A stretch of DNA of 41,383 nucleotides from Nemertoderma westbladi (taxonomy: Eukaryota; Animalia; Xenacoelomorpha): NCBI GenBank assembly GCA_032718475.1, contig JAUCBJ010000366.1, positions 1 through 41,383 on the forward strand, written 5' to 3'. Of this stretch, positions 3,733-37,210 are shown in pieces (position 1 is the first letter of the stretch; every line of letters starts with the position of its first letter). Below the pieces are notes generated by a model. The model worked only from the letters and a program-made list of their open reading frames with translations. It did not search any database and was not told the DNA's origin. Both the position numbers and the translations under genes were made by a program.

Positions 3733-3752
3733 CCGTACAAACCCCTACTACT

Positions 3753-4231: not shown

Positions 4232-4244
4232 GTAAGAGTGCGGC

Positions 4245-4581
4245 ATGTCTTTAAACACTTACCGTAAGAGCCAACTGGAAGAAGTTCTCAGTCAATTACG
4301 AGCTGAAAATGACGATTTCAAAATGCCAGCAACGAAAAAGGAAATCATTGAAGAACTTGATAAAGAGAACCTAACTGTTATTAAAATTCTGCTCAGCCAC
4401 CCGCAATCAGCTAACCAACAACAACCAATGGCGTCTGGAGGTGAGATCAAACAAAAGGTAAGGTTACCTGAATTCTACCCAAAAGACGCACGTGTTTGTT
4501 TCCAGCAGGTTCAAGCGGTATTGCTGGGACACAGTCACTCATCTATGAAATCGAAACTATTAGCAGCATTACCACACACAA
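4245..4581 (+). pseudogene. Ty3/Gypsy gag N-terminal remnant
   Basis: KVRLPEFYPKDARVCFQQVQAVL resembles the Gypsy gag motif VKLPxFWxxDPxxWFxQVEAxF. It continues beyond the LINE insertion at 19574. Confidence 0.6.
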
Positions 4582-5466
4582 GAGCGCAAACCAGTTGTAC
4601 TGGCATTTATTATCATTAGATTAAAATTGGGTAAAATTTAAATATGAACAGATATGCGTTATGAGAACACTAGTAGCATATATCAACGGTATATGACGCA
4701 TTTGAACAGTAGTATATATCAACAATAGTATCATATACAATACAACTGACTGACACACTAAAATTGTACGACATGAATAATGTCAATGGAAACTGAGAGT
4801 AAGTATATATAATACGACTTCCATTCAGTAAGAGTTGTACAGTATATGCGTAGAAGTTCATCAGGTAGTAATCGCAAAAAAAAATCCTCACAAATCAACC
4901 CATCAAAGTATTTAAGTATCCATTAAATTAACCAATTAAATATTAATTAAAACATTTACAAACCACGGTTCACAAAGTAGCGCTCTAATCCCATGGGAGT
5001 AAAATTGTGCAAAAATATTAACAATATATAGCTTTAAAACGAGGCAGGCACGGTACTGGTAAAACAATAATTTAAACGGTGGACCAGCATAATAGTAGGA
5101 TAATCATGAAATTTTAATAAAGGTTCCGTTTAGTGTACGGGATGGACATTGAACACTCCTGGTTAAGTATCTCAATTATATATCATCATCAATAGGCACA
5201 CCGGTCAAGCCGGTTTATAATAAATAAAATTAAGACATTATAAAAATAAGTATACATTTCACATATAACACCAAAATGGACGTCGGTCAATATATATATT
5301 ATCCTATTACTCAGGGTTAATTGTATTCGATCGAGATTCCGTCGGGTGGTGCAACATGCAACCCGTTAATAAGTGGGCCATAAGTCAACATTCGTACGTA
5401 CTTTTACAGCTGTTAATGAGTGTCATACGGGACGAGTATTCTAGAGGTACGTTGGATCGGTATCAA

Positions 5467-6423
5467 TTAATTCCAAAGAACTGTAGGATCCTTCGTTTTT
5501 TTAGCAGCAAATGAGGTGTTTTTCAATGCGTAGCAGTCACGGAGAAATTGCGCCGTGAGTATATCAGCTCGTGGGGGTGGTCCTATGTCAATCCTCGTTA
5601 AGATGTTGGGTGTGGAATATTTGTATGTAAGCAGGGAGTATAGTCTTGGGAGTTGAAATTCGTGTTTAGCCTTATTGTATCCACTGGAAACCCCACAAAA
5701 TTGTTTCTTATGATTCAGGTTCGACAAGGCACGGAAGGATCCTTGCAGAGTGACACTGGGACATGTGGCGTATCGGAGAGCCATTGCAGTGCATTCCTTA
5801 AAAGCCATGACTGAGATTGGTTTGCATCCAGTAAGTGTATAGAGGACGCAGTTAGAAACGTAGGAGCCTGTGTGAATGAGCCCTCTTAGTGATTTGCGGT
5901 AGTAGGAGTCAAGGCTATCAATTTCAGATGAGGATAATGCACCGATATTGAATCGCGTGCTATATATTATAGAAGGTAACGCTACAGACTTCCATAGTTT
6001 AAAGGTTGTCTCCACGTTCAACCATCTAGTGGTCCAGCCGTTGTTATGAAAAAAGTGGGACATGGATGCGATGGATTTCACGCAGTCTGTGTACGCAGTT
6101 TTTCGGTTAGATATTTTGAACCCAAGGAAGGTTAGAGTGTTTGATTCGGTTATCGTGTTCCCAGCATTGACAAGGGGGTATCTCTCAGTCTTAGTTAAGT
6201 GTGTTCTTCCCCAACACATCCATTTAGATTTACTGTGTTCAATCTCTAGGTTAAGTTGTGCACACTGGTCGGTCACGATAGCCACCATTCGTTGTATGTC
6301 CTTAAACGAAGTGCTCAAAATTAGGAAGTCGTCGGCGTATGCTAGAGCTCCCAACCAAACATCATTTATCTTACCCCTGTTTAACCCCCCTGAGTACTCT
6401 GATACATTCGCTATCTGAGTCAA
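5467..6423 (-). pseudogene. LINE ORF2 C-terminal part (RT YADD motif and thumb)
   Basis: LGALAYADDFLILS, KSKWM, TFLG. It is out of frame with the upstream RT; the LSPxLF block expected after GVKQG is missing. A degenerate CCHC remnant (AHLLTGC) lies near 5355-5410. Confidence 0.85.
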
Positions 6424-8051
6424 TAAAGGTGCCGAACTTCAGGTAGACTTTGCTGATGGAGTAATAGTGCATGAGCGTCATTAGTATGTGAGGGTTCAGG
6501 ATTTTTTCAAGTTTATTAAAAAGAAGTGAGTGATCGACATTGTCGAATGCTGATGCTAGATCGAGTTGTAGCACATACACAGGTGAGCCGCTACTCTTGT
6601 AGTGTTGCAGACATTCTAGGACTGTTCCAATCACCAGGTCCGTCCCGATTTTCTTCTGGTAGGCGACCTGATTGGGATGTTGTTTACAGTCTGTGTCGAT
6701 GAGTTCAGAAATTACAATTTGTTCGAACACTTTTGCTAAAAGACAAATTATGGACACAGGCCGATACGAGTTTGGATCGGCGTGGCTACGCCGTTTTCCC
6801 TTGTACACACTTGCGACAATCGTCTTACCGAAGTCAGTGGGGACCTTGTGTAATCGAAAGCACGAGTTGATGATAATGGTAATGAGAGGGCAGATGGCGT
6901 CAGGGTTGACATGCAGAATATGTTCTACTTGTATAGATGCGTAATCAGGTGATTTGCTTGTAGAGAGTGATGCAATCGCTCGTCTCACTGTAAGGGGTGA
7001 GATTGACGGTGATACAGACCCACTGGACTGGTTGTATAAGCGCGATGACAATTGTTCCATATTCTGTTCATAGTTGCAGGGAGTGGTATAGTTGCAGGGA
7101 GTGGTATAGTTGCAGGGAGTGGTATAGTTGCAGGGAGTGGTGAACTTCTTTGTGTAATGTTGTCGGAGCTTGGTTTGCATGGACAGTGGGATTGTGTTCT
7201 TGCTGCTGGGTTTGAACCGTTTCCAAAATGTGTGTTGGTTGTTACGGGAATACGCCCAGCTGTTTGCTTTATTGGCAACAACATTCTTGGACAACCAGTT
7301 TTTCAGACGCCGTGTGTTACGTTTCGATTCCTTGAACTCATTATGAATAGGATCATCTTGTGTTTTACCTCGCTGCTGCCACATAGTGTATAGGTCCTTT
7401 GTCAGTCTGATACGCTGTGTAAGCAGCATTGACCTAATCCGTAGGTTGTGGGATCGCTTGCGGATCTTTATTTTGGGGAGATGTAGATCAGCTGCGGAAG
7501 TAATAATGTCTTGTAACTTACTCGTGATGTCGTTGAGTTGGTCTAACGTTAACAGATTTGGATTGTTAACACTGCATAGGAGGTTGTTAGTGTTGAGTTC
7601 CACGTCTTCCTTGTATCTATTCAGGTCGCTCTCAGTTGCTCGTTCCCAGCATATCCTAGGTTTCATTTTCCTTTGGTGTCCTGGGCAATTGTCTTTTTTC
7701 GGGCTACCGAGAGGACAGATGAAACTGCACACAACCGGTACATGATCAGATAAATTGGTTGGGGGATCACGTTCATAGACAGCACCATTGATGGGGGAGA
7801 GTGAGCTGTTTGTAACAATATGATCAATGTAGGACTCTCCATTACCGTGGAAAGTTACGCATGGTCCACTGAATGGGGGATTAGTGTCAGATGCTAACAA
7901 GGCATTAGTTTCAAGGAATGAGCAGAAAGTTTTACCCCTAGATGTGGGAGATTGGCGTGACGAACGAGGACCCTGAAGGGGTCCCAAGTCGGCATTTGCG
8001 TCTATGAGGAGGATAGGTTCTGCGTCACAGTGGGCTTCAATGATTGCCTCT
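6371..8051 (-). pseudogene. LINE ORF2 middle part (endonuclease C-half, linker, RT N-half)
   Basis: DANADLG, SYIDHI, SDHVPV (APE motifs); NSYRPVS, LDLASAFDNVDH, GVKQG (RT motifs). The first ~58 codons of the tracked ORF 6371..8224 are antisense LTR sequence. Confidence 0.9.
7071..7141. repeat. 18-bp x4 in-frame tandem repeat (TTPCNY)
   Basis: TAGTTGCAGGGAGTGGTA repeated four times inside the ORF2 linker. Confidence 0.95.
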
Positions 8052-8286
8052 TGTGATATCTTAGATATATTATTATGTTTACATGGTTGCTTAGCAATAT
8101 ATATTGGATAGTCAGCTGGTGGCTGGGTATGTCGGTATGTGGTACGGCCTGACAGTCCCCATGTAATATCATATTCAGTAGCATAGCTATACCGGTACAT
8201 AGACAGATATAAATATACATTCATTATATGGAAGTATTATATGACTATTATATGTTCATTATATAAACAAACTGAAAGACATAACA
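8052..8286 (+). repeat. 5' LTR
   Basis: TGTGATATC...CATAACA, directly followed by the PBS. Confidence 0.97.
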
Positions 8287-8364
8287 TGGCGCAGTGTGTT
8301 TTTAGCCAATTCGGCTAACGAACCTTCGAGGGATAAATACACCCACAAACACAATTACCGGTAA

Positions 8365-9581
8365 ATGGCTACCGCTATTTCGCAAGATGATTGGCTGGAC
8401 CTCACCCTCGAGGAGATCAACGAACTCGATCGCGCGGTTCTCCTCGTACACTGCCGAAACGCCGACATCAAATTTAACAGTAAAACGTCAACGGTAATTC
8501 TGCGCGAACGATTATCCGCCACGATATCGGGCGAAACACCACCCCCTTCCATAAACCCAAACCTGGGGGAAATCCTGGCCCTATTGCAACGGGAACGGAT
8601 CGAAGAGGACGAACGTCGGGAGAGCATCCGTGCTGCAGAACGGGCAGCAGAGCGAGCGGAACTCTTTGAACTGCTTAACCTAAGCAGAGGCGGCACCAGC
8701 AACGCATTGACACCGGATCGAAATGCCGATGCAAGGGGGCATGATGGGGTTAAATACACGGCCCGAGTCCCCGATAAACTCGACACTGATTTCAATTATC
8801 AGCGTTACAAGCGCTGGGAGGTGCAGTGGAATAACTATTGTAAAATTATACACATTGATTCCAAACCCCTAGGAGACCAAACAGCTATCTTCTTCTCCAA
8901 CTGCACGCCCGAGTTTCTCAGCCGTATCCACCACCGTCTCAACATCCCTCCCGATACAGACAAACCTTTGCGGCAAATCCATGACGAGATACGAACATAT
9001 CTCCGAGCAGAGAGCAACATCGTGGTAGACAGACACAGACTGGTTGAACTTAAACAAACTGAAGGACGAACGTTTGATGACTACTATGTACGCCTCTGTG
9101 AACTAGCCGAGGACGCAGAGCTCAGTTCGATGACCCCGGACGACTGGATAAAAACAACCCTTATCCGTGGAGTCAGAGATGATGAATCCCGGGAGGAGAT
9201 ATTTACAAAGCACCCTCCTCTAACCCGAGAGGAAACGCTGGACTTCTTCCGAGCGAGGGAAACAGCAGCTAAGGACGTTAAGCTGCTTAGAAACCAACGA
9301 GTCTGTCCAATTAACAGAAGGGAGGACCATGCTGGTAACTCTGGGCGCGCCGCCGGAAATCAAACCCGAAGGCCGTGGAATCGTAGCAGCAGTCATAAAC
9401 GCGGGAAAAACGACGGACGCAATCGGTCGCCATCAACCACCCGTTCTAACTCGAACAACAGGGAGTCGGTTATGAAAACGATACGCCACGCCAAGGAGCG
9501 GGGCCTCTGTCTATACTGTGGAGGTGACTGGCCCCATGGCGAACATAAACCGTGCAAGGCCAGTGGTCACAACTGTAAAAC
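8365..9581 (+). CDS. gag: Gag (capsid plus zinc knuckles)
   Basis: YKRWEVQWNNY and KQTEGRTFDDYYVRLCELAED capsid motifs; knuckle CLYCGGDWPHGEHKPC. The second knuckle CKxCGKSGHFASQC is split by a frameshift at ~9577-9582. Confidence 0.9.
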
Positions 9582-12500
9582 TGTGGAAAATCCGGCCACT
9601 TCGCCTCACAGTGTTTCCAACCAAAACATCCCCAAAAAACCGGCGCTATCCAAATTGCAGACATTGGCGGGTACACCAAGGATCGTTACAAGCCGCTTAT
9701 CGCCGTTGATTTCTTCAAATCCGGTGAATATATAGGAAACAAATGCTGCATAGCAGACACCGGCGCTCAGGTGACTGCAGCGGGAACCAACGTTATGAAT
9801 GAACTGGAACTCCCAAAATGTGCGAAAATTATTAAACCCGATTTACCGCTGGAATCTGTAAATAGCGACCGTATCAATTGCGATGGAATGGTCCAGTTGG
9901 AGCTATCTATCGAAAATAAACTCCACAAGGAGTGGGTTTATGTCTGTCCGGATCTGGGGAGTGACATCTACCTGTCACTAACTGCCTGTAAGGGTCTTGG
10001 GGTCGTCCATCCAGATTTCCCCACACCAATCACTACGACTGCGGTTATAAACTCGATAACTACACAACGGGATGACACCGAAACGATTAAAGTTAAACTC
10101 ATGGAGGAATTCGATGACGTATTTGCCAAGGATGGTCGCCGCCTTCAAACAATGGTTGGGCCTCCGATGACGATCGAACTCGTTGATAATGCGACTCCAT
10201 TCTGCCTGTACGCTGCGAGACCAATTCCCTTTCCCTATCGGGAGAAGGCATATCGAGAACTACTCGACATGGAGTCAAAAGGCGTCATTGAGCGGGTAGG
10301 CGACAGACCGACGGCTTGGTGCCACCCAATCGTGGTCTGTCCCAAACCGAACCGCCCGGGGGAGATCCGCATGACAGTGGATCTTACCAAACTCAACTCA
10401 CAGGTCCGGAGAACGGTACACAACTCCCGGACTCCCCTCGACGTAGTCTCGGATCGAACACCCGGCGCAAAATTCTACACTACCCTCGATGCTAAAAGTG
10501 GGTACTGGCAGGTAGAACTCGACGAGGAATCCCGGGACTATACTACATTCCTGACCCCGTGGGGAAGGTTCCGCTACTGCAGGGCGCCCATGGGCTTTAT
10601 ATCGGCGGGCGACTCCTATAACTTCCGCGGTGATATGGCCCTCGACGGCATTCCTCGTGTCCATAAAATCGTGGACGATATCCTAATTGAAGACAAAACT
10701 CTCGAGGACCACGTACAGCGAGTCCGGACGGTGCTCGGTAAGTGCCGCAATGCCGGAATTACTTTACACCCACCCAAATTTCAATTCGCCAAGCAAAGCG
10801 TAAAATTCGCCGGGTTCGTAGTATCCATGAACGGGATAGAAGCCGATCCGGAGAAAGTAAAGGCCATCGGAGAGTTCCCAACACCCAGCAACATAACGGA
10901 CCTCCGCAGCTTCATGGGGTTAGTCAACCAACTTGGACACTTTAGTAGCGAAATTAGTACCGCCGCAACCCCCTTACGAGATCTTCTTCGAACCCGAAAC
11001 CAGTTCATCTGGACTAGCAACCACGAAGAGGCATTCCTTAACGTTAAACACGCCCTCATACAACCCCCTATCCTAGCAACCTTCGACCCCGGCGCCGAGA
11101 CACGTCTGGAAACCGACGCCAGTCGATTACACGGGTTTGGCTACGACTTACTTCAACTCCACGGCAACCTATGGAAGTTAGTTGCCTGTGGAAGTCGGTT
11201 CATCTCCGACGCGGAGACCAGATACTCAACAATCGAACTCGAGACAGTTGCGATCCGCTTTGCGATAAATAAATGTCGGGTTTATTTGTCTGGGCTTCCA
11301 ACATTTATGGTGGTCACTGATCATAGACCGCTCGTTACGGTTTTCAACGATTATACTATCACGCAGATCGAGAACTTGAAGATACAACGGATCAAAGCAG
11401 ACCTACAATCGCAATACCAGTTCCGAGTCGTCTGGACTAAAGGGAAGTCGCATCGTATCGCGGACTGCCTCAGCCGCTCACCTGTGGACGACCCAACTCC
11501 GGACGATGACTCCGGAAACATCGAACCGATTATAATCGCATCCATTTTCTCCATCCTGTCTAACCAGAATGCAGAGGACGCCAACATGGACCCGGTATTG
11601 GAGGAACTCCGAACGGTCGGGCTTAAAGATCCTAACTATCAGGAACTCATACAGGAAATAAAACATAACTTCCGATCTGGGCAGAAACCGTCGCCATATG
11701 TGACGAAGTTCAACTCAATCGCCCACGAACTCTCGATTACTAACGACATAGTTTTATATGGCCGGCGCATTGTTGTCCCAACGGATCTACAACCAGAGAT
11801 CCTCAAGCGTCTACACGCCTCCCACCAAGGGATGACGCGTACTAAACAACGGGCGAGACAGGCGGTGTACTGGCCCGGAATGAATCGGGATATCGAACTA
11901 ACTGTTAGTCGCTGTGAATCATGTCAGGAACTCCGACCGAGTCTCCAGAGAGAAACACTTAAAACGGACGAGTTACCACAGCGCCCCTTTGAATCCGTGT
12001 CCGCCGACCTATTCTCAATCAGTCGAAACCACTACCTCGTCTACATCGATAGACTATCCGGTTACCCCGTGGTCCACGAGTGGCGACATGATCCCACATC
12101 CAAGGACGTCTCCAATGCCATTAGACCATGGTTTGTAAACTTAGGAATCCCAACTAAATTCAGGTCAGATGGGGGACCACAGTTTGCCGCCTCTTCATTC
12201 GACACTTTCCTCCAACGCTGGGGTGTCAAGTGGAGTCCAAGTACCCCGCATTTCCCATCCAGCAACGGACACGCGGAGGCCGCGGTTAAACTTGTGAAAC
12301 ACCTCCTCCGGAAGGTTCCCCGAAACTCTATACACTCCGAAGAATTCCAAACCGGATTACTCGAAATTCGAAACACCCCCCACGCCAATGGGCGTTCCCC
12401 CAATGAAATAGTCTTTGGGAGACTACTGCATTCTCGAATTCCCGCACATCATTCTGCCTACTCACAACAGTGGCAGGAGAAGGCAGACGAAATCGACCAA

Positions 12501-12872
12501 CATGCAGCGAATTTCCGCCTAGAGGCCGAAGAGAAATACAACCATTCCGCCCACGACCTGCGCCCCCTAGCAGTGGGGATGCCAGTCCGTATCCAGGACC
12601 CTCAAAAAAGGAACTGGGTGCGTACAGGGACCGTGATCAGCGTGGGTCCGAAACGGGACTATCGAGTCAAACTCCCATCGCGACGGGTTTGGTGGCGCAA
12701 CCGCCGTTTCCTACGGGAAGACACAGCACAACCCGTCCAAACTGAACGAACACCTAACCCACAACCAAACAAAATCGAAACTACCCCGAACGAACCCCTA
12801 GCGTCACAACCCCGACGCAGCGAGTGTTCACGAAGACCCGTAGTACATTTTGGTGCTACCACCATAATCTAG
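9582..12872 (+). CDS. pol: Pol: aspartic protease, RT, RNase H, integrase
   Basis: The pol frame reads from CGKSGHFASQC at 9582 through ADTGAQV (protease), LDAKSGYWQ and IVDD (RT), ETDAS and TDHRPL (RNase H), HASHQG..CESC, SADLF, SDGGPQF and NGHAEAAV (integrase). Confidence 0.95.
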   Translation, partial: CGKSGHFASQCFQPKHPQKTGAIQIADIGGYTKDRYKPLIAVDFFKSGEYIGNKCCIADTGAQVTAAGTNVMNELELPKCAKIIKPDLPLESVNSDRINCDGMVQLELSIENKLHKEWVYVCPDLGSDIYLSLTACKGLGVVHPDFPTPITTTAVINSITTQRDDTETIKVKLMEEFDDVFAKDGRRLQTMVGPPMTIELVDNATPFCLYAARPIPFPYREKAYRELLDMESKGVIERVGDRPTAWCHPIVVCPKPNRPGEIRMTVDLTKLNSQVRRTVHNSRTPLDVVSDRTPGAKFYTTLDAKSGYWQVELDEESRDYTTFLTPWGRFRYCRAPMGFISAGDSYNFRGDMALDGIPRVHKIVDDILIEDKTLEDHVQRVRTVLGKCRNAGITLHPPKFQFAKQSVKFAGFVVSMNGIEADPEKVKAIGEFPTPSNITDLRSFMGLVNQLGHFSSEISTAATPLRDLLRTRNQFIWTSNHEEAFLNVKHALIQPPILATFDPGAETRLETDASRLHGFGYDLLQLHGNLWKLVACGSRFISDAETRYSTIELETVAIRFAINKCRVYLSGLPTFMVVTDHRPLVTVFNDYTITQIENLKIQRIKADLQSQYQFRVVWTKGKSHRIADCLSRSPVDDPTPDDDSGNIEPIIIASIFSILSNQNAEDANMDPVLEELRTVGLKDPNYQELIQEIKHNFRSGQKPSPYVTKFNSIAHELSITNDIVLYGRRIVVPTDLQPEILKRLHASHQGMTRTKQRARQAVYWPGMNRDIELTVSRCESCQELRPSLQRETLKTDELPQRPFESVSADLFSISRNHYLVYIDRLSGYPVVHEWRHDPTSKDVSNAIRPWFVNLGIPTKFRSDGGPQFAASSFDTFLQRWGVKWSPSTPHFPSSNGHAEAAVKLVKHLLRKVPRNSIHSEEFQTGLLEIRNTPHANGRSPNEIVFGRLLHSRIPAHHSAYSQQWQEKADEIDQHAANFRLEAEEKYNHSAHDLRPLAVGMPVRIQDPQKRNWVRTGTVISVGPKRDYRVKLPSRRVWWRNRRFLREDTAQPVQTERTPNPQPNKIETTPNEPLASQPRRSECSRRPVVHFGATTII

Positions 12873-12982
12873 AATCCCCAAAACATAGCTATTCTATAGA
12901 CCAATCTCGCATAAATCCGGTGATGGGTTTTTATAACATTATATAAAACATTTAAACTCGTTTGATCTCGGAGAAAGGGAGA

Positions 12983-13217
12983 TGTGATATCTTAGATATA
13001 TTATTATGTTTACATGGTTGCTTAGCAATATATATTGGATAGTCAGCTGGTGGCTGGGTATGTCGGTATGTGGTACGGCCTGACAGTCCCCATGTAATAT
13101 CATATACAGTAGCATAGCTATACCGGTACATAGACAGATATAAATATACATTCATTATATGGAAGTATTATATGACTATTATATGTTCATTATATAAACA
13201 AACTGAAAGACATAACA
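12983..13217 (+). repeat. 3' LTR
   Basis: Matches the 5' LTR and is preceded by the polypurine tract. Confidence 0.97.
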
Positions 13218-13222
13218 CCTCT

Positions 13223-13887
13223 AATCTGCCGAGAAAGTTGAGGTATTCAGCACTACTTTTTCCACTGTCTGGGGCATAGCAGCTTAGAATGAGAAATTTG
13301 TTATCTGATTCCACTAGTGTGATTTTAGATCCTACAATATCACCGTCAGATTCAATGGGGGAATGTTCTGATACACAATCCTTACGTATAAACAATGCAA
13401 CTCCACCTGAGCCGCGTTTTCTGTCTGGATTACACATGGCCAAACCAGGGGTGTGTTCACAGTAGAATCTGCTATCGAGACTGTCCAAAAGAACTTCACT
13501 TTCTAGACGATCTAGCCAATGCTCCTGAATTCCTAAAAAGTCGCACATGTTCAGTAATCTACAGATGTAATCAGAGTTGCTGCAGAACCCACGGGTATTG
13601 AAGGTTCCTACCGCAAATGTTGAAGCTCCACTTACAGTAGGATGGTCAATAGTTATATGCGCACGTTTATCATCAATCCTCACTTTCTGTTCCTCTACTG
13701 AAGTATCTTTTGCGTTAAAGGTACTGTCTATGAGGGGCAGGAGTACGATAGGCACGAGGCCATTCACAAGCCTGTTGGTACTGGGATGAGTCTGTATATT
13801 TTGGTGTGGTATATCTTGTTGGTTTCCTGTCCGAGGAGTAGTCCCTGGTCCAGTGGTGGGCAGGGGGATCACTTGCAGATTTATCAC
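13223..13887 (-). pseudogene. LINE ORF2 N-terminal part (APE endonuclease N-half)
   Basis: GTFNTRG, LGIQEHWL, GSGGVALFIR, SCYAP. Excising the LTR element and one TSD copy joins LGRLE|AIIEAH in frame. Confidence 0.92.
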
Positions 13888-15680
13888 CTAAGGAGGAATA
13901 CCTTGACAGTCGACGAGCAGGCTGATCCGGGTAGGGGATCTGTTGCTGTTGGAAGCAGTTGCTGTCGCGTCGTTCATTGTACTGTTGGTTGAGCTTTATA
14001 TTTGATCGACATTGTGGGTGTATTGTCTGGTAAATTATCGGTAGATTTCGGTTGATATCGTCATCATTAAAGTGCGGATTGCTGACTGGCGAAGTTTTTG
14101 AGGTTTTGTGAGCTACTCGGAAGTTGTATTTCCACTCTCTACAGGAAATCCCGTGTGGCCAGAAGCGTTCATCGGTCACCGTGGCAAGTTTCTGTTTGCA
14201 TACTTCTACTTTCATGTTCTTTGAATCTTTGTATATGTGTGTGGTGATGCGGTTGACGTCAATGTGCTGGTCCTCTAAAAACCTAACAACATCTTCTTCC
14301 GAGTTCCTGTGGTGTATCCCAGTCACATATATGGCAGTGAACTTCTTGGAATGAGAACATTCAAGGTTTGCTGTTTGTGAACCGCGACCATGTAGTGTGT
14401 GCGATGCGATGTTATTGTTTCGGGTATAAGCTCTATCAGCCTTCCTGTCCTTGACTTTGAAATTCTGTTGAGGGTAGGAGGCAAGGATAGGTTGATTTAC
14501 TGTTGAAGCGTGCAGAAAGCCTGGTGGTTTCAGGTTAGTATCACTGTTAGGTGTTGGCTCATCAGCATCGAGGCATGCAAAACGATTCCGGGTACGATGT
14601 TGTGGGGTATTAATATTGGTTGTTCCTGTTCCAGTGTGGGTGGGTCTGCGGACCGAGTTGGTATCGCTGGTATGAGCTGGATGTTGCTTGCGGGTTCTTA
14701 CATAATTCCATGGAACGTCATCATCGTCATATCCAGTTGGAGACGCAATGGAGTCGAGGATAACATACTGAGAGTGATCGTCACTGGAAGCATTTTCAGG
14801 CATGTTTAGCGCCTGGAATTTCGCTTCCAGTAGTGACCTGGCATGGCGTTCGAATGACAATTCTTCATTCAATGTGTTGTGGGCTTCTTTCATTTTGCTC
14901 TGTTCGTTTTCCATGATGCACAATCGTGCTTGAAGTACACCAATAGCTGCAATCAGGTCATGTACCTGGGGTAGGGCAGTGGTCATATTGTCGTCAGGAG
15001 TACATTTCTTCAGCCGCTTGCGGCAAGATTCCAGCAGCTGTTCTTCCTGGCAGCAGCGCAATAATTCATATAAATCTATGGAAGCTTCAGGTACTGATGA
15101 TCTGTGTCGTAATTGTTGTGATACACATTGAGTCGGTGACATGAAAGGTTTAGTAGATTTAAATGTCATTTCTCTGGTGTCCAGCAGCTTGTCCATGCCC
15201 ATCATGGAAAATTCTCTGAGCGCTTTAGCTTTTCCCTCTTGGACGATTTTTAGGAGGTCTGGTACTGATTGTGAAGTTGTTGTTAAAAGTGCGGTGGCTT
15301 TATCGAGGCTTGGTGATAGGGGTATTCTGGGGCTGCAGCCTTTTATTAGTTTAATTCTAGAGCGTGTTTCATGTATTGGTTCTGATGTGGTGCGGGCTCT
15401 CGTAGATATGTTTCGAGTAAAGTTTTTAGCGTGCCTGGTCTGCTCCTGGTGATGGTGGCCATTCTCTAGCTCGTAAGGGTTGCTGTATTTTATATTATTT
15501 AGAATATCCTGGATCCACTTGCGTGATGATCGAGAGTTCAGGAGGAGGTGCTTAGGAATAAAACGTTGGTTATGGGCAAAAGCAGCTGCATAGAGGCATA
15601 CCATTATGCCACAGTCAAAGTCGTTTGTTTGTTTTGGTAGGTTTTGTCCAAATGTATCCTTGGAATTAATGCATCTCCAT
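13715..15680 (-). CDS. LINE ORF1 C-terminal part: protease catalytic Cys motif, coiled coil, NRFxxL motif, RRM-like domain
   Basis: The frame is open upstream of the tracked ATG: WRCINSKDTFGQNLPKQTNDFDCGIMVCLYA. Also heptad region LQARLCIMENEQSKMKEAHNTLNEEL, TRNRFACLD, and AIYVTGI...FWPHGISCREW, which is typical of LINE ORF1 proteins. Confidence 0.8.
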
Positions 15681-18600
15681 CATGTTTCACATGAGATTCC
15701 GATAAGTGGCGCCAGTATTGTTCATCCATTTTGTTAAAAACTGCACAGATTCTTTGGGTTATGTCATTAGGGTTACTGTTTCCGAGGGGGCACATCTTGA
15801 ATATTGTTCTATTCCTTATATTTACTACATGCAATACATGGTGGTTATTTGAGCACTCTGGTATGAATATGTAGCTGGGTGATGTCATTTCCTTGTTTGA
15901 GGAAGCCAAGAAATAGCTTCTGGCAATGTATTTGGCGGCCTCGACTTTATTGTATTGTTTGAATTTTAATTTCTGTGATAGCTCTTCGGTGATCCACGTT
16001 ATGTTTGGCATTGAACGTTCCAGCATCCAACAGAATGCATCAATTGCTCCATTGCTTACCAGGTTTTCATCTTCTAGTGATTTGAGGTCTATATCTGTTG
16101 GCTGTGAAATTCCATAGTAGAAGTTTGACGTATCAGCAATGTGTATCTTTTGCGCAATATTGTATATTTGTTCGTTTATTTCAGAGATGGTGGGTCCTGC
16201 TTTCTTAGGGCCGGTGTTAGGGACCTCAATTATAGATGAGGAGATATCTGCAAAATTCAGGTCGTCCGACCAGATAGGGCATGGGGCGACTGTTCCACCT
16301 GAGTCCGATGTATCCAAAAATCCTATTGGTGGTCTTGTTATATCTTGGTTAACGTGGGAATTTGGAAATGGTGCGATTGATTTAGTGTTGGATGTATTAG
16401 TTGGTTGGGATGATATTGGGTCTTTCAGTAGCGGCTTTTGACAGAAGGTTTTGTGAGGGGGTTGGGTTTTGTTAGTGGAAGCAGTAGGTGCCGTCACAGG
16501 TGAGTCAGTGTATACCATATGTGGTGTTGATGTGCCGAAGTCAACTGATGTGCGTGTGTCAGGGTTCAACGCAAGTGGACTTTGTGTATTAATAGTGCGT
16601 AAGGAAGATAGAGGGGTGTGTGAAGTGGTGGGGGTGTGTACAGTAGGTGAGGTGTGTATGGGACTCATAAGTATAGTTTTAGTATTAGATGTTGATGTAG
16701 TTGTGATGCTGCTAGTGGTTGGTAGGGTTGTGGTTGGTAGGGTTGTGGCTGGTATATAGCATTGGACTGATTCTCCTAAGATGTCAGAGAGGTTATTAGG
16801 CAATGGTGCTTCTGTCATGGTAATGGAATCGTAGATGTTGCTTTCCGTATTATCTAGTTTATGTGGTACAGATACGGTGCTCTCGCCAGTCATCCGATTG
16901 TTGGCAGTAGTAAAAGGAGTATGAGTGGTGACACCCACATTGTATAAACCACTATGATTCGAATTGATGCAGGATGGTTTACACTTGTTGATGTTTGGTA
17001 TCTGAAGAGCATTAGTGTTTGGAATGGCACGGTTTTCCCATGATCCATCATCTTGGAGATCGTGAATTTCTATCCAGTTTCTAGTATTCTCAGGGATACT
17101 GCTTTGAATCTCCTCCTGCCGATTATTACAGTCAGTAGTTTGGGCACATTGTGTCGAATTTATCCCTCTTTGACTTCTTGTAATCGGCCTATGTTGAAGT
17201 GCATTCGTCTTGTGTTGTCTTTGTTTTCTATTTGAAATTTTTGTATGCGTTGGTGAGGAAGCCTGTGTTTTATGAGGTTTGGAGGGCTTTGTATTGGAAG
17301 ATGGTGTGGTTGACGGATGTGGTGCTGTGGAAGTTGTGTGTACTGATTGTGGTGATAGGGCGGAAGTGTATGTCATGGCAGCGGAGGGAACTTTATTAGA
17401 TGGAATTGTGGTATATATGGCGGAATTGGTCAACACTGTGGTGTTACAATCAGTGATGATATTGCGTGCAGTTATCGGGGTATAAGGTATAGGGTCAGTG
17501 TACATCAAGGTAGGTGAGATAGTAGAAAGTGGGTTATATGTTCGTGGGCCTTGGGCTGTGTACACTAAGTTATCAGAGTAACTAGTTGATATGCTTACTG
17601 TAACTACTGAAAATGTAACAAACCCAATTTCCGATGTGTCCTTAGTCCTGTCTTCAGACATAGTTGGCGACCCGATGACTCCACTCGCCAAGCACCCTTG
17701 GTCCAGGTCACAGGCTGTATGGATGCCCGGGCCTACCTGGACCAGAGATGCTAGGCTTAGGGGAGTTCTGGATATGATTGGCTTCGCTGTTAAACCCAAT
17801 GTCGAAACCCCGGATTTATCGATCGTGGACGATAAGACCGCGAATTTATCGATCGTGGACGTCGTTGTTTTCAAACCCGACATTGAGACCAAGGGTATAT
17901 CGATCGTGGACGTCGTCGTTGTTAAACCCGACGTCGAGACCCCAGATTTGTCGATCGCCGACTTCGTCGTTTTCAAACCCAACATCAAGACCCCGGATTT
18001 ATCGATCGTGGACGTCATCGTTGTCAAACCCGACGTCGAGACCCCGGATTTATCGATCGTGAACGTTGTTGTTTTCAAACCCGACGTTGAGGCCAAGGGT
18101 ATATCAATCGTGGACGTCGTCATTTTCACACCCAACATCGAGACCTCGGATTTGTCGATCATCGACGTCGTCGTTTTCAAACCCGACATCGAGACCCCGG
18201 ATTTATCGATCGTGGACGTCGTCATTGTTAAACCCGACGTCGAGACCCCAGATTTATCGATCATGGACGTCATCATTGTTAGACCCGACGTCAAGATCCC
18301 GGATTTATCGATCGTGGACATCGTCGTTGTTAAACCCGGCGTCGAGACTCCAGATTTATCGATCGTGGACGTCATCGTTGTTAAACTCGACGTCGATATC
18401 TCGGATTTATCGATCGTGGACGTCATCGTTGTTAAACCCGACGTCGAGATCCTGGATTTATCGATCGTGGACGTCGTCGTTGTTAAACTCAACAACGATA
18501 TCTCGGATTTATCGATCGTGGACGTCATCGTTGTTAAACCCAACGTCGAGATCCCGGATTTATCGAACGTGGACGATAAGACCCCGGATTTATCGATCGC

Positions 18601-19458
18601 GGACGCCGTCGTTTTCAATCCCAACGTCGAGACCCCGGATTTATCAATCGCGGACATCGTCGTTTTCAGACCCGACATCGAGACCCCGGATTTATTGATC
18701 GTGGACGTCGTCGTTTTCAAACCCGACGTCGAGACCCCGGATTTATCGATCATGGATGTCGTCGTTGTCAAACCCGACGTCGAGACCCCGGATTTGTCAA
18801 TCGTGGACGTCGTCGTTTTCAAACCCGACGTCGAGAACCCGGATTTATCGATCATGGACGTCATCATTGTTAGACCCGACGTCAAGATCCCGGATTTATC
18901 GATCGTGGACGACGTCGTCGTTGTTAAACCCGGCGTCGAGACTCCATATTTATTGATCGTGGACGTCGTCGTTGTTAAACTCGACATCGATATCTCGGAT
19001 TTATCGATCGTGGACATCATCGTCGTTAAACCCGACGTCGAGATCCTGGATTTATCGAACGTGGACGATAAGACCCCGGATTTATCGAACGCGGACGTCG
19101 TCGTTTTCAATCCCAACGTCGAGACCCCGGATTTATCGATCGTGGATGTCGTCGTTTTCAGACCCGACGTCGAGACCCCGGATTTATTGATTGTGGACGT
19201 CGTCGTTTTCAGACCCGACGTCGAGACCCCGGATTTATTGATCGTGGACGTTGTCGTTTTCAAACCTGACGTCGAGACCCCGGATTTATCGATCGTGGAC
19301 GTTGTCGTTATTAAATCCGACGCCAAGGACAAGGGACTGGAAACAGTCGTGTTTTCGATGCCTGAGTTGTTAGAGTTGAGACGTGGTATTCTGCTATTCC
19401 GCTGTAGATCCCGCACTCGCGTGGACGACTTGACCGGAGTACGGCAGATGGTTGGCAT
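15604..19458 (-). CDS. LINE ORF1 N-terminal part: Thr/Ser-rich mucin-like repeats, low-complexity region, Ulp1-like protease N-half
   Basis: 1284-aa ORF with an ATG 115 nt inside the inferred 5' end. 17-aa repeats TTTTSTIDKSGVSTSGL; C-terminal DLKSLEDENLVSNGAIDAF...YIFIPECSNNHHVLHVVNIRNRTI. Confidence 0.75.
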   Translation of the reverse strand: MPTICRTPVKSSTRVRDLQRNSRIPRLNSNNSGIENTTVSSPLSLASDLITTTSTIDKSGVSTSGLKTTTSTINKSGVSTSGLKTTTSTINKSGVSTSGLKTTTSTIDKSGVSTLGLKTTTSAFDKSGVLSSTFDKSRISTSGLTTMMSTIDKSEISMSSLTTTTSTINKYGVSTPGLTTTTSSTIDKSGILTSGLTMMTSMIDKSGFSTSGLKTTTSTIDKSGVSTSGLTTTTSMIDKSGVSTSGLKTTTSTINKSGVSMSGLKTTMSAIDKSGVSTLGLKTTASAIDKSGVLSSTFDKSGISTLGLTTMTSTIDKSEISLLSLTTTTSTIDKSRISTSGLTTMTSTIDKSEISTSSLTTMTSTIDKSGVSTPGLTTTMSTIDKSGILTSGLTMMTSMIDKSGVSTSGLTMTTSTIDKSGVSMSGLKTTTSMIDKSEVSMLGVKMTTSTIDIPLASTSGLKTTTFTIDKSGVSTSGLTTMTSTIDKSGVLMLGLKTTKSAIDKSGVSTSGLTTTTSTIDIPLVSMSGLKTTTSTIDKFAVLSSTIDKSGVSTLGLTAKPIISRTPLSLASLVQVGPGIHTACDLDQGCLASGVIGSPTMSEDRTKDTSEIGFVTFSVVTVSISTSYSDNLVYTAQGPRTYNPLSTISPTLMYTDPIPYTPITARNIITDCNTTVLTNSAIYTTIPSNKVPSAAMTYTSALSPQSVHTTSTAPHPSTTPSSNTKPSKPHKTQASSPTHTKISNRKQRQHKTNALQHRPITRSQRGINSTQCAQTTDCNNRQEEIQSSIPENTRNWIEIHDLQDDGSWENRAIPNTNALQIPNINKCKPSCINSNHSGLYNVGVTTHTPFTTANNRMTGESTVSVPHKLDNTESNIYDSITMTEAPLPNNLSDILGESVQCYIPATTLPTTTLPTTSSITTTSTSNTKTILMSPIHTSPTVHTPTTSHTPLSSLRTINTQSPLALNPDTRTSVDFGTSTPHMVYTDSPVTAPTASTNKTQPPHKTFCQKPLLKDPISSQPTNTSNTKSIAPFPNSHVNQDITRPPIGFLDTSDSGGTVAPCPIWSDDLNFADISSSIIEVPNTGPKKAGPTISEINEQIYNIAQKIHIADTSNFYYGISQPTDIDLKSLEDENLVSNGAIDAFCWMLERSMPNITWITEELSQKLKFKQYNKVEAAKYIARSYFLASSNKEMTSPSYIFIPECSNNHHVLHVVNIRNRTIFKMCPLGNSNPNDITQRICAVFNKMDEQYWRHLSESHVKHDGDALIPRIHLDKTYQNKQTTLTVA
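17790..19320. repeat. 51-bp CpG-rich coding tandem repeat, ~30 units
   Basis: Consensus GTCGTCGTTGTTAAACCCGACGTCGAGACCCCGGATTTATCGATCGTGGAC. Confidence 0.95.
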
Positions 19459-19573
19459 TTTGACTACCTCCTACCAGATAAGCAATTGTAAATTATATAA
19501 TTCAGTACCGGTAATTTATATATATGTGGCTGGCCACGAGAAAAGGGAGGCACACTGACTAACTGGCCATCAG

Positions 19574-20108
19574 ACACAATTACAGCTAAGGGCTTTGTTT
19601 CCATACAGAGATGATATTAGATGCAGGTGTCAATGTAACGGATTCTTTTGACATCATTCGGAGCAACATCATCACTCACCTCGCCGATAGTGATGACAGA
19701 CGCTTAAGGAGACTCCTGGCAGAATAGGAGCTCGGCTACCGAAAACCGTCAGCGGCTTGCTTGCAACCGGGCCATAGTGCTACTACCATTTCATCTACGG
19801 TAAAGAGGCATCGAAGTGTGAACCTCCATGTAACTGGAAAGATTTCTCAAAGGCAATCTCAACAATGCCAGGTAACTCAAATCAAAATTATAATAATACT
19901 AGCGATGTCAACGCTATACATGTACAAGCTTTACCTATAGGTGTATTATTAGTAGATTCCGGAAGTGACCTCTCCATTTTGCCACCATGTTTAAAAATGT
20001 ACTTAGAAGAATTAGTACCAAATTCTGAAAGTTTAACAGCTGCGAATCATTCCAGTATAAAATCTTACGGTAAAGGTAAACTTTCTTTTTCTATACCGGA
20101 ACTATCCA
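19574..20108 (+). pseudogene. Ty3/Gypsy gag continuation and aspartic protease remnant
   Basis: SFDIIRSNIITHLADSDDRRLRRLLAE*ELGYRKPS (LGDRKPS-type gag motif) and LLVDSGSDLSILP (protease). Confidence 0.75.
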
Positions 20109-20524
20109 TTAAGGGGGGGGGGGGGGGGGGGGGGGGGGGTACACCATTTTGGTCCAAAATATGTTGAAATTTTTTTTATGGTCTATTATAATGCACCCTT
20201 GAATGGTGTTTCCAAATCTGAAAACCGCTATGTAATAGCTCTTTTAGTTTTCATGTTATCTAAATTTTCATTTAGGGAATCCTATTGAAATTACTATTAC
20301 TATGTATAATGAAAGGTTGATTATCTCCAAATATTTTTTTCATGAAATTGTCAACTTCAAAACCCTACTACTTCTACAATTTTTGAGTAATTAGTCTGAA
20401 ACTTCCTGTGGGTGTCTAGATAGCCACCCTGCATAAAAGTATCAGACAACTTTTCGAAATTTTTTGTTAATAAAATTTAATACTATTTATAAAAAAACCT
20501 AAAAATTTGCATAAATTTGCAGCG
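20109..20524. mobile_element. Probable end of a non-autonomous TTAA-targeting DNA transposon (Kolobok-like)
   Basis: The protease remnant ends abruptly at TTAA (20109-20112), followed by a 27-nt G run and AT-rich non-coding DNA. The partner end was not found. Confidence 0.35.
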
Positions 20525-21492
20525 CTAGAATTTTGTTACCATGGTGGTCTGCAGTAAATACCTATCAGTACATGGCAAGGCGGTAGATTGTTAGTAAACC
20601 TCCCTTAGCCAAAATGTGTGCCGGTAGCAGAAAGATGCCCCTTTACCTGATCAAATACTTTGGACTCAGACAGGTCAGTCAAACTGCAAGGCCTACAGGG
20701 CTAACCGGTACTGTAGGCCTACTGCTAGTACGGCAAATCACCAAATTATAGAGCGTGCTATTTGCACCTAGTGTACTTGCGCGTACTGACAAACACCATC
20801 AGCTCGCACCTGTAAGAGATACAGGTTGACCCGGGTTTTTCTGTCTGAATCTGAGGTATTTGTTCCTAAATTTTACGGCGTCCCAGGACGTCGTCACGCT
20901 TCACCCTGATCTAGGGAACTTACGGCGGGCAAAGGCGTCAAACAAAGTCTTACCTCATCTGACGTGGGCACGATCAGGCAATAGGGTCATACTTCCAAAT
21001 GGGCGTGGGCGAAGATAGTGGGGGCTCCTTTATGCGTTGTGGACATCCCTTCCCCTTGCGTTGCTGTAGCCTAAAGGTTTAGGCAGCCATTCCCCAAAGC
21101 GTTTGGCTGTTCAAGATAGATACGCTAAAAACTACATGTTCTGATTTTGCAGTATATTTTTAATGTAAATGACAAAAGATTTATCGAATATAGACTAAAC
21201 TTTACAAATTAACTTATAAGTATAAGCTAATGATATTAGTGATAACCGAAGGGCAAATGGCACCATATATAGGAAATCCTAAGCTTGGAATCCACTAGAA
21301 CATTCTACCGCATTCTATGAGCTTACATTGGACCAATAAATCATTAAACACCCTTCGATTAGCCCAACTAATCTGTCCATGTGTTGTACGCACTCCATTG
21401 GCTTATCTTGTTTGGTGAAACCGAAAATAAATTGCACAAAATAGACATTTTATTGACCCAGATTCGAACTCTCGACCTACCTAGGATGTAAC
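20525..21492 (-). mobile_element. ~970-bp non-coding dispersed element, copy 1 (Helitron-like or SINE-like)
   Basis: Aligns with 32696-33550 plus 36422-36531. Both copies stop at CTAG on the left; a B-box-like AGTTCGAATCT lies on the minus strand near 21460-21472. Confidence 0.65.
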
Positions 21493-23399: not shown

Positions 23400-23890
23400 A
23401 CATTCTGGTAGAATGTCTGGTGAATGGTCTGGTAGACAGTCTGGTGAGACGTTTGGTGAAACACATCGCAGAACATCCGGCGAAATGCTCTGCCATACAT
23501 CCGGTAGAAAGTCTGGCGTAACATTTGGCAGAATGTCTGGTCTAAAGTCTGGTTGACAGTCTGACGAGATGTCTGGTGGAAAGTCTGGTTGACAGTCTGG
23601 CGAGATGTCTGGTCGAAAGTCTGGATATATTTCCAGCAGAATGTCTGGTGGAAAAAATGGTAAGATGTCCAGTAGACAATCAGTCGAAAGATCCAGAAAG
23701 CAGTCTGGCGAAGAATTCAGAGAATAATCTGGTGGACAGTCTGGCAAACAATCTGGCGAAACGTCTGGTGAACAATCTGGCAAAACGTCTGGTGAAATTC
23801 CCCATGGAACATCCAGCAAAAGATTTATTGGAACGTCTGGTAGAATGTCTGGTGAGATGTTTGGCGTATTGTCTGGTGGAGTGTCCAGGT
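23400..23890. repeat. Degenerate 12-bp tandem repeat (GTCTGG core) encoding xPDx tetrapeptides
   Basis: About 40 units such as GTCTGGTAGAAT and GTCTGGCGAGAT; the minus-strand ORF reads SPDVLPDCSPDVSPDCLPD. Confidence 0.9.
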
Positions 23891-36966: not shown

Positions 36967-37210
36967 AATGAATGAATGAATGAATGAATGAACGAACGAA
37001 CGAACGAACGAACGAACGAACGAACGAACGAACGAACGAACGAACGAACGAACGAACGAACGAACGAACGAACGAACGAACGAACGAACGAACGAACGAA
37101 CGAACGAACGAACGAACGAACGAACGAACGAACGAACGAACGAACGAACGAACGAACGAACGAACGAACGAACGAACGAACGAACGAACGAACGAACGAA
37201 CGACGAACGA
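36966..37210. repeat. Compound microsatellite (GAAT)6(GAAC)~53
   Basis: Directly visible. Confidence 0.97.

What the first reader, a model, noticed from the sequence alone, without database searches (positions are those of the whole stretch)
15500..16090. Hidden Ulp1/SENP-like (C48) cysteine protease inside ORF1 of an APE-type LINE
Seen: the end of ORF 15604..19458 and the frame upstream of ORF 13715..15604 join across a one-base shift near 15640-15682. The joined sequence reads DLKSLEDENLVSNGAIDAFCWML...YIFIPECSNNHHVLHVVNIRNRTIFKMCPLG...WRC...LPKQTNDFDCGIMVCLYAAAF...SRKWIQDIL. Established: this follows the Ulp1/SENP motif order (DLxxL..WLND..I; PI..xxHW.L.V; YYDS; PxQxNxxDCG; R..I..IL), and Ulp1 domains are known from the restriction-endonuclease-type NeSL LINEs and some DNA transposons. 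Here His (15841-15843), Gln and Cys (15611-15613) are present, but the catalytic Asp position reads Cys and the substrate-clamping Trp residues are replaced. Inference: a de-SUMOylase/deubiquitinase-like module in ORF1 of an APE LINE could counter SUMO-dependent transposon silencing or process the element's own protein. I do not recall this architecture, but cannot confirm that it is new.
Basis: partly seen in the sequence, partly recalled or inferred. Interest (0 to 1): 0.88.

Follow-up and report, generated by a model that had tools for sequence, protein, structure and literature searches.

The report
LINE ORF1 carries SUMO-protease-like domain
A jumping gene (a LINE retrotransposon) carries a SUMO-protease-like domain inside its first protein, broken in this copy but in frame in other copies; it likely strips protein tags that the host uses to silence such elements, but its active site is partly altered and its activity is untested.

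Summary
Observation confirmed. Each half of the domain separately passes Pfam's Peptidase_C48 cutoff (29.3 and 23.7 bits against 20.7). Contigs from 3 public runs (2 studies) hold one extra base at 15680/15681, so in those copies the protease and the downstream coiled-coil part form one frame, 1,914 residues from ATG 19458 if the unlaid 5' array is also intact. The element is an APE-RT LINE at 4582-19573. The window copy is dead (frameshifts, a Gypsy insertion, an RT deletion); the contigs lack these breaks. His, Gln and Cys sit at SENP1 spacing, the Asp position is Cys, and both clamp Trp are replaced. Cys at that position also occurs in 2 of 12 NeSL/Utopia proteases, and two other motifs are NeSL-like, so the module may have moved between retrotransposon lineages. 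No relative turned up among 1.84 billion proteins; folds were uninformative. Activity and substrate are unshown. Ten literature searches found no C48 in an APE-LINE ORF1, but Repbase and key Kojima papers were unavailable. This scan earlier noted C48 domains only in NeSL-like elements on other DNA.

The parts
4582..19573 (-). Whole LINE copy (14,992 bp; 9,821 bp without the nested Gypsy element and one copy of its target duplication)
   Evidence: Flanked by complementary halves of one older gag-like domain (DUF7041 positions 1-30 on the left, E 0.16; 57-84 on the right, E 0.083) and a 6-bp direct repeat at 4576-4581 / 19574-19579; loose contig ends with unlike flanks at 4578 in X2; lengths. 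Boundaries inferred.
19459..19573 (-). 5' UTR, 115 nt
   Evidence: Between the inferred 5' end and ATG 19458; inferred
15682..19458 (-). ORF1, upstream part (residues 1-1259)
   Evidence: ORF 15604..19470, ATG at 19458
17835..19322 (-). 51-bp tandem array encoding 17-residue Ser/Thr-rich repeats (ORF1 residues 46-542); CpG-rich
   Evidence: TRF; 0 stops in the ORF1 frame and 0 in one plus-strand frame, no synonymous bias (44 of 133 differences against 43 of 153 possible), 55 of 133 CpG-type; CpG o/e 2.2.
17690..17755 (-). Strong hairpin inside ORF1, core shared with other repeats
   Evidence: z -4.47, 0 of 200 shuffles fold as well; short pieces with unlike flanks in all 4 runs; no Rfam match
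16141..17661 (-). Ser/Thr/Pro-rich linker of ORF1 (507 codons); holds the only Gly-Gly of ORF1 (residue 1054)
   Evidence: 0 stops against 22 and 43 in the other frames, 0 of 2000 shuffles open; no Pfam match; Gly-Gly count
15682..16089 (-). C48 protease-like domain, N-half: DLxxL motif, Leu at the first clamp-Trp position (16062-16060), catalytic His 15843-15841 followed by His, Cys at the triad-Asp position 15792-15790
   Evidence: PF02902 29.3 bits; codons
15680..15681 (-). One-base frameshift of this copy; other copies are in frame here
   Evidence: table 4 (X1, X2, X3)
15500..15679 (-). C48 domain, C-half: oxyanion Gln 15631-15629, nucleophile Cys 15613-15611, closing helix
   Evidence: PF02902 23.7 bits; weak SENP/Ulp1 matches in PDB
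14800..14971 (-). Predicted coiled coil of ORF1 (residues about 1497-1554)
   Evidence: 12 of 17 a/d positions hydrophobic in the best of 7 registers; weak coiled-coil family hit FPP E 0.004
14125..14338 (-). RRM-like segment of ORF1 (residues about 1708-1779); identity recalled from other LINE ORF1 proteins, not proven
   Evidence: Only weak hits to ferredoxin-fold families (BLUF E 0.051; U2AF large subunit E 0.017); single-sequence fold pLDDT 52 with no match at E<=0.001
13218..13714 (-). ORF2 start: APE endonuclease, N-part (no in-frame ATG seen before the domain)
   Evidence: Exo_endo_phos 25.9 bits; translation
8052..13217 (+). Nested Ty3/Gypsy LTR element that interrupts the APE domain in this copy only
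   Evidence: Identical 235-nt LTRs, 5-bp target duplication 8047-8051 / 13218-13222, RT, RNase H and integrase hits; contigs run across the site without it
5467..8046 (-). ORF2 rest: APE C-part and reverse transcriptase; this copy lacks 77 bases at 6373/6374 and has one extra base at 5496
   Evidence: Exo_endo_phos_2 31.6 bits, RVT_1 44.9 and 36 bits; contig pieces and indels
4582..5466 (-). 3' UTR
   Evidence: Contigs of X2 and X3 start at 4588, loose ends at 4578; inferred

Best explanation
The C48 domain is an in-frame accessory module of the ORF1 protein of an APE-type LINE, and it likely works as a cysteine isopeptidase that removes SUMO or a related tag from proteins near the element's RNA-protein particle, which would weaken host silencing. 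Shown: the domain, its in-frame link to the downstream coiled-coil part in other copies, the APE-RT ORF2 behind it, and His, Gln and Cys at SENP spacing. Inferred: (1) the family is young and has several copies; (2) ORF1p binds its own RNA through the coiled coil and RRM-like part, as other LINE ORF1 proteins do, and so carries the protease to granules or chromatin; (3) the Cys-His pair is active with Cys instead of Asp as third residue, as in two NeSL/Utopia domains; (4) the target is a SUMO-type conjugate; (5) the module came from another retrotransposon or transposon, not recently from a host SENP gene. My odds: architecture 0.9, some catalytic activity 0.55, the whole chain 0.35.
For: Pfam scores above cutoff for both halves. 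Frame restored and Gypsy absent in contigs of 3 runs from 2 studies; one X2 contig spans 13218-16656 with 33 differences and 1 gap, joining linker, C48, ORF1 end and APE. In X1 the contigs over 15118-15680 and 15705-16656 have 4 and 2 differences, all listed and none in the four active-site codons. ORF2 is in frame in contigs (77 more bases at 6373/6374, which fits the frame offset). Depth rises from ORF1 to RT in all three runs (28 to 115, 82 to 209, 139 to 375), as 5'-truncated copies would give. The domain has drifted beyond phmmer reach of 1.84 billion proteins yet keeps His, Gln and the D-C-G motif, and shares the element's A-rich strand bias (A 0.36 against 0.34-0.35), which fits long residence under selection. 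By eye against S5 Fig of PMC4640811: P-x-C before the His is in 11 of 11 NeSL rows, 0 of 10 cellular rows, and here; C-G-x-x-x-C-L is in 10 of 12 retrotransposon rows, 0 of 10 cellular rows, and here; Cys at the Asp column is in 2 of 12 retrotransposon rows, 0 of 10 cellular. SUMO is required for piRNA-guided silencing in Drosophila (abstract, 10.1101/533091). An active accessory enzyme in ORF1p has precedent (ZfL2-1 esterase, passages of PMC3905857).
Against: Both Trp residues of the Gly-Gly tunnel are replaced (Leu, His); the second is kept in 22 of 22 rows, the first in 17 of 22, and a review calls these Trp essential and says triad mutations abolish activity (passage, PMC4397505). The WLND motif (recalled) reads LVSN. 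An open frame proves little about the domain itself, because it lies upstream of the coiled coil in the same ORF. Retention of the motifs is partly circular, since they are how the domain was found. For X2 and X3 only part of the differences were listed (40 rows shown, 70 not). Contig depth is not a copy number. The RRM call is unproven. A diverged linker variant carries a net 8 extra bases, which would break its frame. The host and its silencing pathways are unknown.
Confidence: 0.35

Rival explanations
1. Self-processing protease: the domain cuts ORF1p in cis and frees the C-terminal coiled-coil/RRM part from the 1,100-residue low-complexity front end, as CE-clan viral proteases process polyproteins (recalled: adenain, poxvirus I7, ASFV pS273R).
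For: The domain sits at the border between the disordered front end and the RNA-binding end. The only Gly-Gly in 1,914 residues lies 70 residues before the domain, against 4.3 expected over the whole protein. Loss of SUMO-contact motifs would not matter for a cis cut.
Against: One Gly-Gly in the linker is near chance (0.39 expected there), and the deficit elsewhere follows from the repeat unit. Those viral proteases keep His-Trp (recalled). A passage of PMC3894237 says APE-type ORF products are not processed.
Confidence: 0.2
2. Non-catalytic or nearly dead domain kept as a SUMO- or ubiquitin-binding decoy or as a structural module of ORF1p.
For: Third triad residue and both tunnel Trp are changed together. 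An earlier unchecked note of this scan describes a preserved dead C48 copy in a NeSL-like element (e1-9187044; a lead only).
Against: The nucleophile Cys, His and oxyanion Gln are all kept at the right spacing, whereas pseudo-proteases usually lose the Cys or His (general knowledge); the changed residues are the ones that would bind the tag.
Confidence: 0.22
3. Passenger: a protease fragment captured from a DNA transposon or another retroelement rides in ORF1 without function and is decaying; the frame is kept only because the coiled-coil/RRM part lies downstream.
For: No relatives with this architecture were found; several motif positions deviate; Ulp1 domains are common in DNA transposons (PMC2836005 passages), so donors are at hand.
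Against: Base composition matches the rest of the element; motif order and spacing are complete across 190 residues; no transposase or terminal repeats were seen around it.
Confidence: 0.15
4. The locus is not a mobile family but one or two loci, and ORF A and ORF B are unrelated pieces joined by chance.
For: A single contig covers 3.0-3.4 kb of ORF1 in X2 and X3, which low copy number would also give; a third study's run (X5) has no cover on the domain.
Against: The join lies inside one Pfam domain and is in frame in three runs; depth rises towards the 3' end, three contigs leave the 3' end into unlike flanks, and a diverged relative with a poly(A) end is in X5; the whole unit splits one older gag domain.
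Confidence: 0.05

Closest known systems
NeSL elements of nematodes and Utopia-1_TSP (PMC4640811; passages and S5 Fig read)
   Same: Non-LTR retrotransposon with an Ulp1-like cysteine protease; relaxed third triad residue (Asn or Cys in 5 of 12 rows); P-x-C before the His and C-G-x-x-x-C-L after the nucleophile
   Different: Those use a restriction-like endonuclease and carry the protease at the N-terminus of the single RT protein; here the endonuclease is APE and the protease lies inside a separate ORF1, upstream of a coiled coil. They keep His-Trp; this one does not.
ORF1 proteins of CR1/L2/RTEX with an accessory enzyme, e.g. ZfL2-1 esterase (PMC3905857, passages); ORF1 types I-V (PMC4120745, abstract and passages)
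   Same: APE-RT element whose ORF1 holds a captured enzyme domain beside a coiled coil; ORF1 modules are known to be shuffled between lineages
   Different: The enzyme is a C48 protease, not an SGNH esterase or PHD finger; the words protease, peptidase, Ulp1 and SUMO do not occur in the 448-element survey's main text; ORF1 here is about 1,900 residues
Ulp1-bearing DNA transposons: Ginger1, Mutator (PMC2836005, passages); CACTA (PMC8978399, search listing only)
   Same: Mobile element with a C48 domain proposed to act on SUMO or ubiquitin pathways during transposition
   Different: There the domain is tied to a DDE transposase of a cut-and-paste element; no transposase is found here
Cellular Ulp1/SENP proteases (PF02902; SENP1 His533-Asp550-Cys603, PMC4397505 passage)
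   Same: Motif order, His, Gln and Cys, and spacings 17 and 6
   Different: Asp replaced by Cys, both tunnel Trp replaced, no phmmer match at E<=0.001 in 1.84 billion proteins
Dualen/RandI elements (recalled, Kojima and Fujiwara 2005; paper not held)
   Same: Recalled as encoding an APE together with a cysteine protease domain
   Different: Recalled as a Josephin-type protease in a single ORF with two endonucleases; not checked here

Membership tests
Peptidase C48 (Ulp1/SENP, PF02902) | Profile score above the curated cutoff | tested here: met
   29.3 and 23.7 bits for the two halves, 24.1 for whole ORF A, cutoff 20.7; whole ORF B 20.0, just below
Peptidase C48 (Ulp1/SENP, PF02902) | Catalytic His and Cys, oxyanion Gln, in the order His...Gln...Cys | tested here: met
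Peptidase C48 (Ulp1/SENP, PF02902) | Asp as third triad residue | tested here: not met
   Cys at His+17; also not met by 5 of 12 retrotransposon members
Peptidase C48 (Ulp1/SENP, PF02902) | Two Trp residues lining the Gly-Gly tunnel | tested here: not met
   Leu and His; second Trp kept in 22 of 22 rows
Peptidase C48 (Ulp1/SENP, PF02902) | CE-clan fold | tested here: inconclusive
   Single-sequence model of the N-half only, pLDDT 43.6; three strands fall where expected, but Foldseek gave nothing at E<=0.001 and VIA-align best Z 3.1
Peptidase C48 (Ulp1/SENP, PF02902) | Cleavage after Gly-Gly of SUMO or another ubiquitin-like protein | not testable with these tools
   Needs an assay
APE-type non-LTR retrotransposon | ORF2 with APE endonuclease followed by reverse transcriptase | tested here: met
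   continuous in contigs
APE-type non-LTR retrotransposon | Separate upstream ORF1, no LTRs of its own | tested here: met
   ORF1 ends at 13715 in another frame than ORF2; the only LTR pair belongs to the nested element
APE-type non-LTR retrotransposon | Target-site duplication and dispersed, 5'-truncated copies | tested here: inconclusive
   6-bp repeat found, but a 6-mer match is expected by chance in that search; split gag halves, depth gradient and unlike 3' flanks support it; no genome held
Type II ORF1 (coiled coil, RRM, CTD) | Coiled coil upstream of one RRM | tested here: inconclusive
   Heptad pattern present; RRM only weakly supported; no Transposase_22 hit
NeSL clade / Utopia | Restriction-like endonuclease after RT, single ORF with N-terminal protease | tested here: not met
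   APE before RT, two ORFs, protease in ORF1
Named LINE clade (CR1, L2, Crack/Daphne, Proto2, RTE-X) | Position of the RT in a reference tree | not testable with these tools
   No named references; best RT relative is one unnamed protein at 31% identity (P0001)

The most novel reading that the evidence does not exclude
A recently active APE-type LINE family has taken a NeSL-like SUMO protease into its ORF1 protein, making a new ORF1 type: an RNA-binding particle protein with its own deSUMOylase that works with a Cys-His-Cys site and disarms SUMO-dependent piRNA silencing in cis. It would be a built-in anti-silencing enzyme in a LINE, and a case of a protease module crossing from the restriction-endonuclease lineage to the APE lineage.
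Probability: 0.2. Interest if true: 0.88.

Novelty: new variant of a known kind. Interest (0 to 1): 0.64.

Why it matters
ORF1 is the variable part of LINEs, and its known add-ons (PHD, esterase, zinc knuckles) do not include a protease in the surveys I could read. SUMO is needed for piRNA-guided silencing, and transposon-borne Ulp1 domains have long been proposed to act on that system without a direct test that I found. A compact domain from a young family, with naturally in-frame copies and an unusual active site, makes both questions testable: whether transposon C48 domains are active, and on what. If it is inactive, it is still an unusual ORF1 architecture.

Tried and rejected
Homologue searches were blank: C48 N-half against longer proteins, 0 of 276 candidates (lengths 98-312 not searched); ORF B against proteins of similar length, 0 of 6052; N-half against 1.84 billion representatives, 0 at E<=0.001; viral contigs, 1 pattern match, no relative; the 9 metagenome loci found with the RT are distant (25-36% identity) and hold no match to any ORF1 piece. 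These libraries are thin for repeat-masked eukaryotic DNA, so the blanks do not show uniqueness. The RT search gave 1 of 2740 candidates. Both folds were single-sequence and uninformative (pLDDT 43.6 and 52.2). No RNA holder was listed. Of 6 listed runs I laid 4; X5 has no cover on 13200-17595, which proves nothing. Rfam found 0 matches in 3000-22000. The bacterial promoter scan is irrelevant. Selection tests were weak: window-versus-contig changes in ORF1 are 4 synonymous of 16 listed, as neutral decay gives; the diverged linker variant has 7 of 16 (P 0.10), or 6 of 10 after dropping 6 rows beside the indels (P 0.026). Rejected: programmed frameshifting (other copies simply have the base); assembly error as the only cause (X1 holds both forms); a second C48 copy in the window (tblastn self-hits only); a recent host SENP retrocopy (no SENP match). 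A first search for the LINE's target duplication gave only chance 7-9-mers. I ran no complex prediction. Papers not held: Kojima's review of transposable-element diversity, the Vingi, RTclass, Dualen and NeSL-1 papers; supplements of the ORF1 surveys were not read and may list rare domains.
Full report
OBSERVATION. The end of ORF 15604..19470 and the start of ORF 13715..15679 each match Peptidase_C48 on their own: 29.3 bits (E 9.6e-7, profile positions 35-168) and 23.7 bits (E 4.8e-5, positions 158-189), cutoff 20.7; no other family reaches E 1 for either piece. His is at 15843-15841, Gln at 15631-15629, the nucleophile Cys at 15613-15611, and the residue 17 after the His, where SENP1 has Asp550, is Cys (15792-15790).

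THE FRAMESHIFT BELONGS TO THIS COPY. Six public runs were listed, three holding 68-83% of the sampled words; I laid four. In X1, X2 and X3 (2 samples, 2 studies; X1 and X3 are one sample, and it may be the window's source) contigs hold one more base behind 15680 or 15681; X1 holds both forms, 16.1 of 25.8 with the base. One X2 contig covers 13218-16656 with 33 differences and that single gap; one X3 contig covers 13626-16656. So linker, protease, the rest of ORF1 and the APE start are one continuous unit in another individual. From ATG 19458 the in-frame ORF1 has 1,914 residues, provided the 5' array, which I did not lay beyond 17900, is intact too.

THE ELEMENT. Behind ORF1 lies an APE domain cut in two by a Gypsy element (8052-13217, identical 235-nt LTRs, 5-bp target duplication), then RT. 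The contigs have no Gypsy at that site (loose ends at 13218 that read on into the far side), hold 77 more bases at 6373/6374, which matches the frame offset between the two RT pieces, and one base fewer at 5496. The window copy is therefore dead, while the common form in the runs looks intact. The LINE itself splits an older LTR element: the left flank matches positions 1-30 of the gag domain DUF7041 and the right flank positions 57-84 (E 0.16 and 0.083, each weak, together complementary), with a protease-like DSG motif further right and a 6-bp direct repeat at 4576-4581 and 19574-19579 (a 6-mer match alone is within chance). That sets the element at 4582-19573 with a 115-nt 5' UTR, and puts the repeat array and the protease inside it. 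Contig depth rises from ORF1 to RT in all three runs (28 to 115, 82 to 209, 139 to 375), three X2 contigs leave the 3' end into unlike flanks, and two linker variants about 9% apart are present in all three runs. Depth is not a copy number, but the pattern fits a young family with 5'-truncated copies. The clade could not be named; the nearest RT found is an unnamed protein at 31% identity. The host is probably an animal, judged from the Gypsy, BEL/Pao and LINE content of the window (inference).

ANATOMY OF ORF1. Residues 46-542: 17-residue Ser/Thr repeats, CpG-rich, with no synonymous bias (44 of 133 against 43 of 153 possible), so their coding role is uncertain. About 600-1105: a Ser/Thr/Pro linker that is open over 507 codons where 0 of 2000 shuffles are. 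1124-1320: the C48 domain. About 1497-1554: a predicted coiled coil. About 1708-1779: a segment that I recognise from memory as the RRM-like domain of LINE ORF1 proteins; tools gave only weak ferredoxin-fold hints and an unusable model.

IS THE PROTEASE ALIVE? For: His, Gln and Cys are kept at SENP1 spacing, also in X1 contigs, whose differences over these codons are fully listed; for X2 and X3 the list was cut. I read S5 Fig of PMC4640811 whole: at the Asp column 7 of 12 retrotransposon rows have Asp, 3 Asn and 2 Cys, against Asp in 10 of 10 cellular rows, so the Cys has precedent (activity of those domains is not shown there). Two more features side with the retrotransposon rows: P-x-C before the His (11 of 11 NeSL, 0 of 1 Utopia, 0 of 10 cellular) and C-G-x-x-x-C-L (10 of 12 against 0 of 10). 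This is a comparison by eye, not a tree. Against: the Trp after the His is kept in 22 of 22 rows and is His here; the first tunnel Trp is kept in 17 of 22 rows and is Leu here (my note undercounted the exceptions as 3); a review passage calls these Trp essential for placing the Gly-Gly and says triad changes abolish activity (PMC4397505). No relative was found to settle it, and the fold test failed for lack of an alignment.

MECHANISM. Best reading (0.35): ORF1p packages its own RNA and carries an isopeptidase that strips SUMO-type tags from nearby host proteins. SUMO and a SUMO ligase are required for piRNA-guided silencing in Drosophila (abstract of 10.1101/533091), and a role in transposition was proposed for Ulp1 and OTU domains of DNA transposons (PMC2836005 passages). 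Every step after the architecture is inferred. Rivals: a binding-only domain (0.22), self-processing, for which the single Gly-Gly 70 residues upstream is a weak hint (0.2), a passenger (0.15), a chance join (0.05).

KNOWN AND NEW. It works like, and partly looks like, the Ulp1-type domain of NeSL and Utopia-1_TSP, but it is not a member of that clade (APE, two ORFs, protease in ORF1). It scores as a C48 domain but fails two features of cellular SENPs, so I do not file it as a SENP. Ten library searches (seven aimed at this architecture) listed no paper with a C48 in an APE-LINE ORF1; I saw most hits as listings only. Word searches of main texts found no protease, peptidase or Ulp1 in the 448-element ORF1 survey PMC4120745 or the L1 survey PMC5203782, no protease or peptidase in the 2026 CR1-group survey PMC13343379, PMC3708506, PMC10294476 or PMC5786205, and only unrelated uses in PMC5718144. 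Repbase, Dfam and five key papers were out of reach. From memory, Dualen elements pair an APE with a cysteine protease, and Repbase entries of marine invertebrate LINEs may hold similar fusions; I put the chance that this architecture is already catalogued at about 0.4. Earlier notes of this scan concern NeSL-like elements only; other look-ups were blank or irrelevant.

VERDICT. A real, in-frame C48 domain in the ORF1 of a likely young APE LINE family; a new variant of a known kind; function open. Interest 0.64.

Noticed in passing
window 17690-17755: Strong hairpin on the LINE's sense strand (z -4.47; extended form 17640-17780 z -3.11). Its core at 17699-17745 recurs in several contigs with unlike flanks in all four runs, including X5: a shared structured motif of unknown kind; no Rfam match.
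   Followed up: partly
window 17835-19322: The 51-bp array has CpG o/e 2.2, unlike the rest of the element, and is open in one frame on each strand; it may be a promoter-like repeat as much as coding sequence.
   Followed up: partly
window 8052-13217: Very recent Gypsy insertion (identical LTRs, target duplication); gag 8365-9735 and pol 9579-12872 overlap in different frames.
   Followed up: partly
window 4236-4581 and 19580-20110: Older decayed LTR element on the + strand split by the LINE: three layers of nesting.
   Followed up: partly
window 13714-13600: ORF2 has no in-frame ATG between the ORF1 stop and the APE domain; start may be non-AUG or coupled to ORF1 termination.
   Followed up: no
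window 17020-17520: Two variants about 9% apart in X1, X2 and X3; the diverged one has a net 8 extra bases.
   Followed up: partly
window 5191-5906: Run X5 holds a diverged relative of the LINE's 3' part (66 differences, 16 gaps in 771 nt) that ends in a poly(A) at 5191, a shorter 3' end.
   Followed up: no
window 7070-7141: Four perfect 18-bp repeats in frame inside ORF2; an X3 contig has only one unit.
   Followed up: no
window 21951-30781: Decayed BEL/Pao element (Peptidase_A17, DUF1759) with another LINE RT nested at 26310-27710, parts of which recur at 35425-36043 and 37311-38301; a 12-bp repeat ORF at 23082-23993; a further LINE RT at 39506-40435.
   Followed up: no
window 1003-2191, 2434-2980, 36966-37211: 22-bp palindromic satellite, 234-bp tandem repeat and a (GAAC)n microsatellite.
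   Followed up: no
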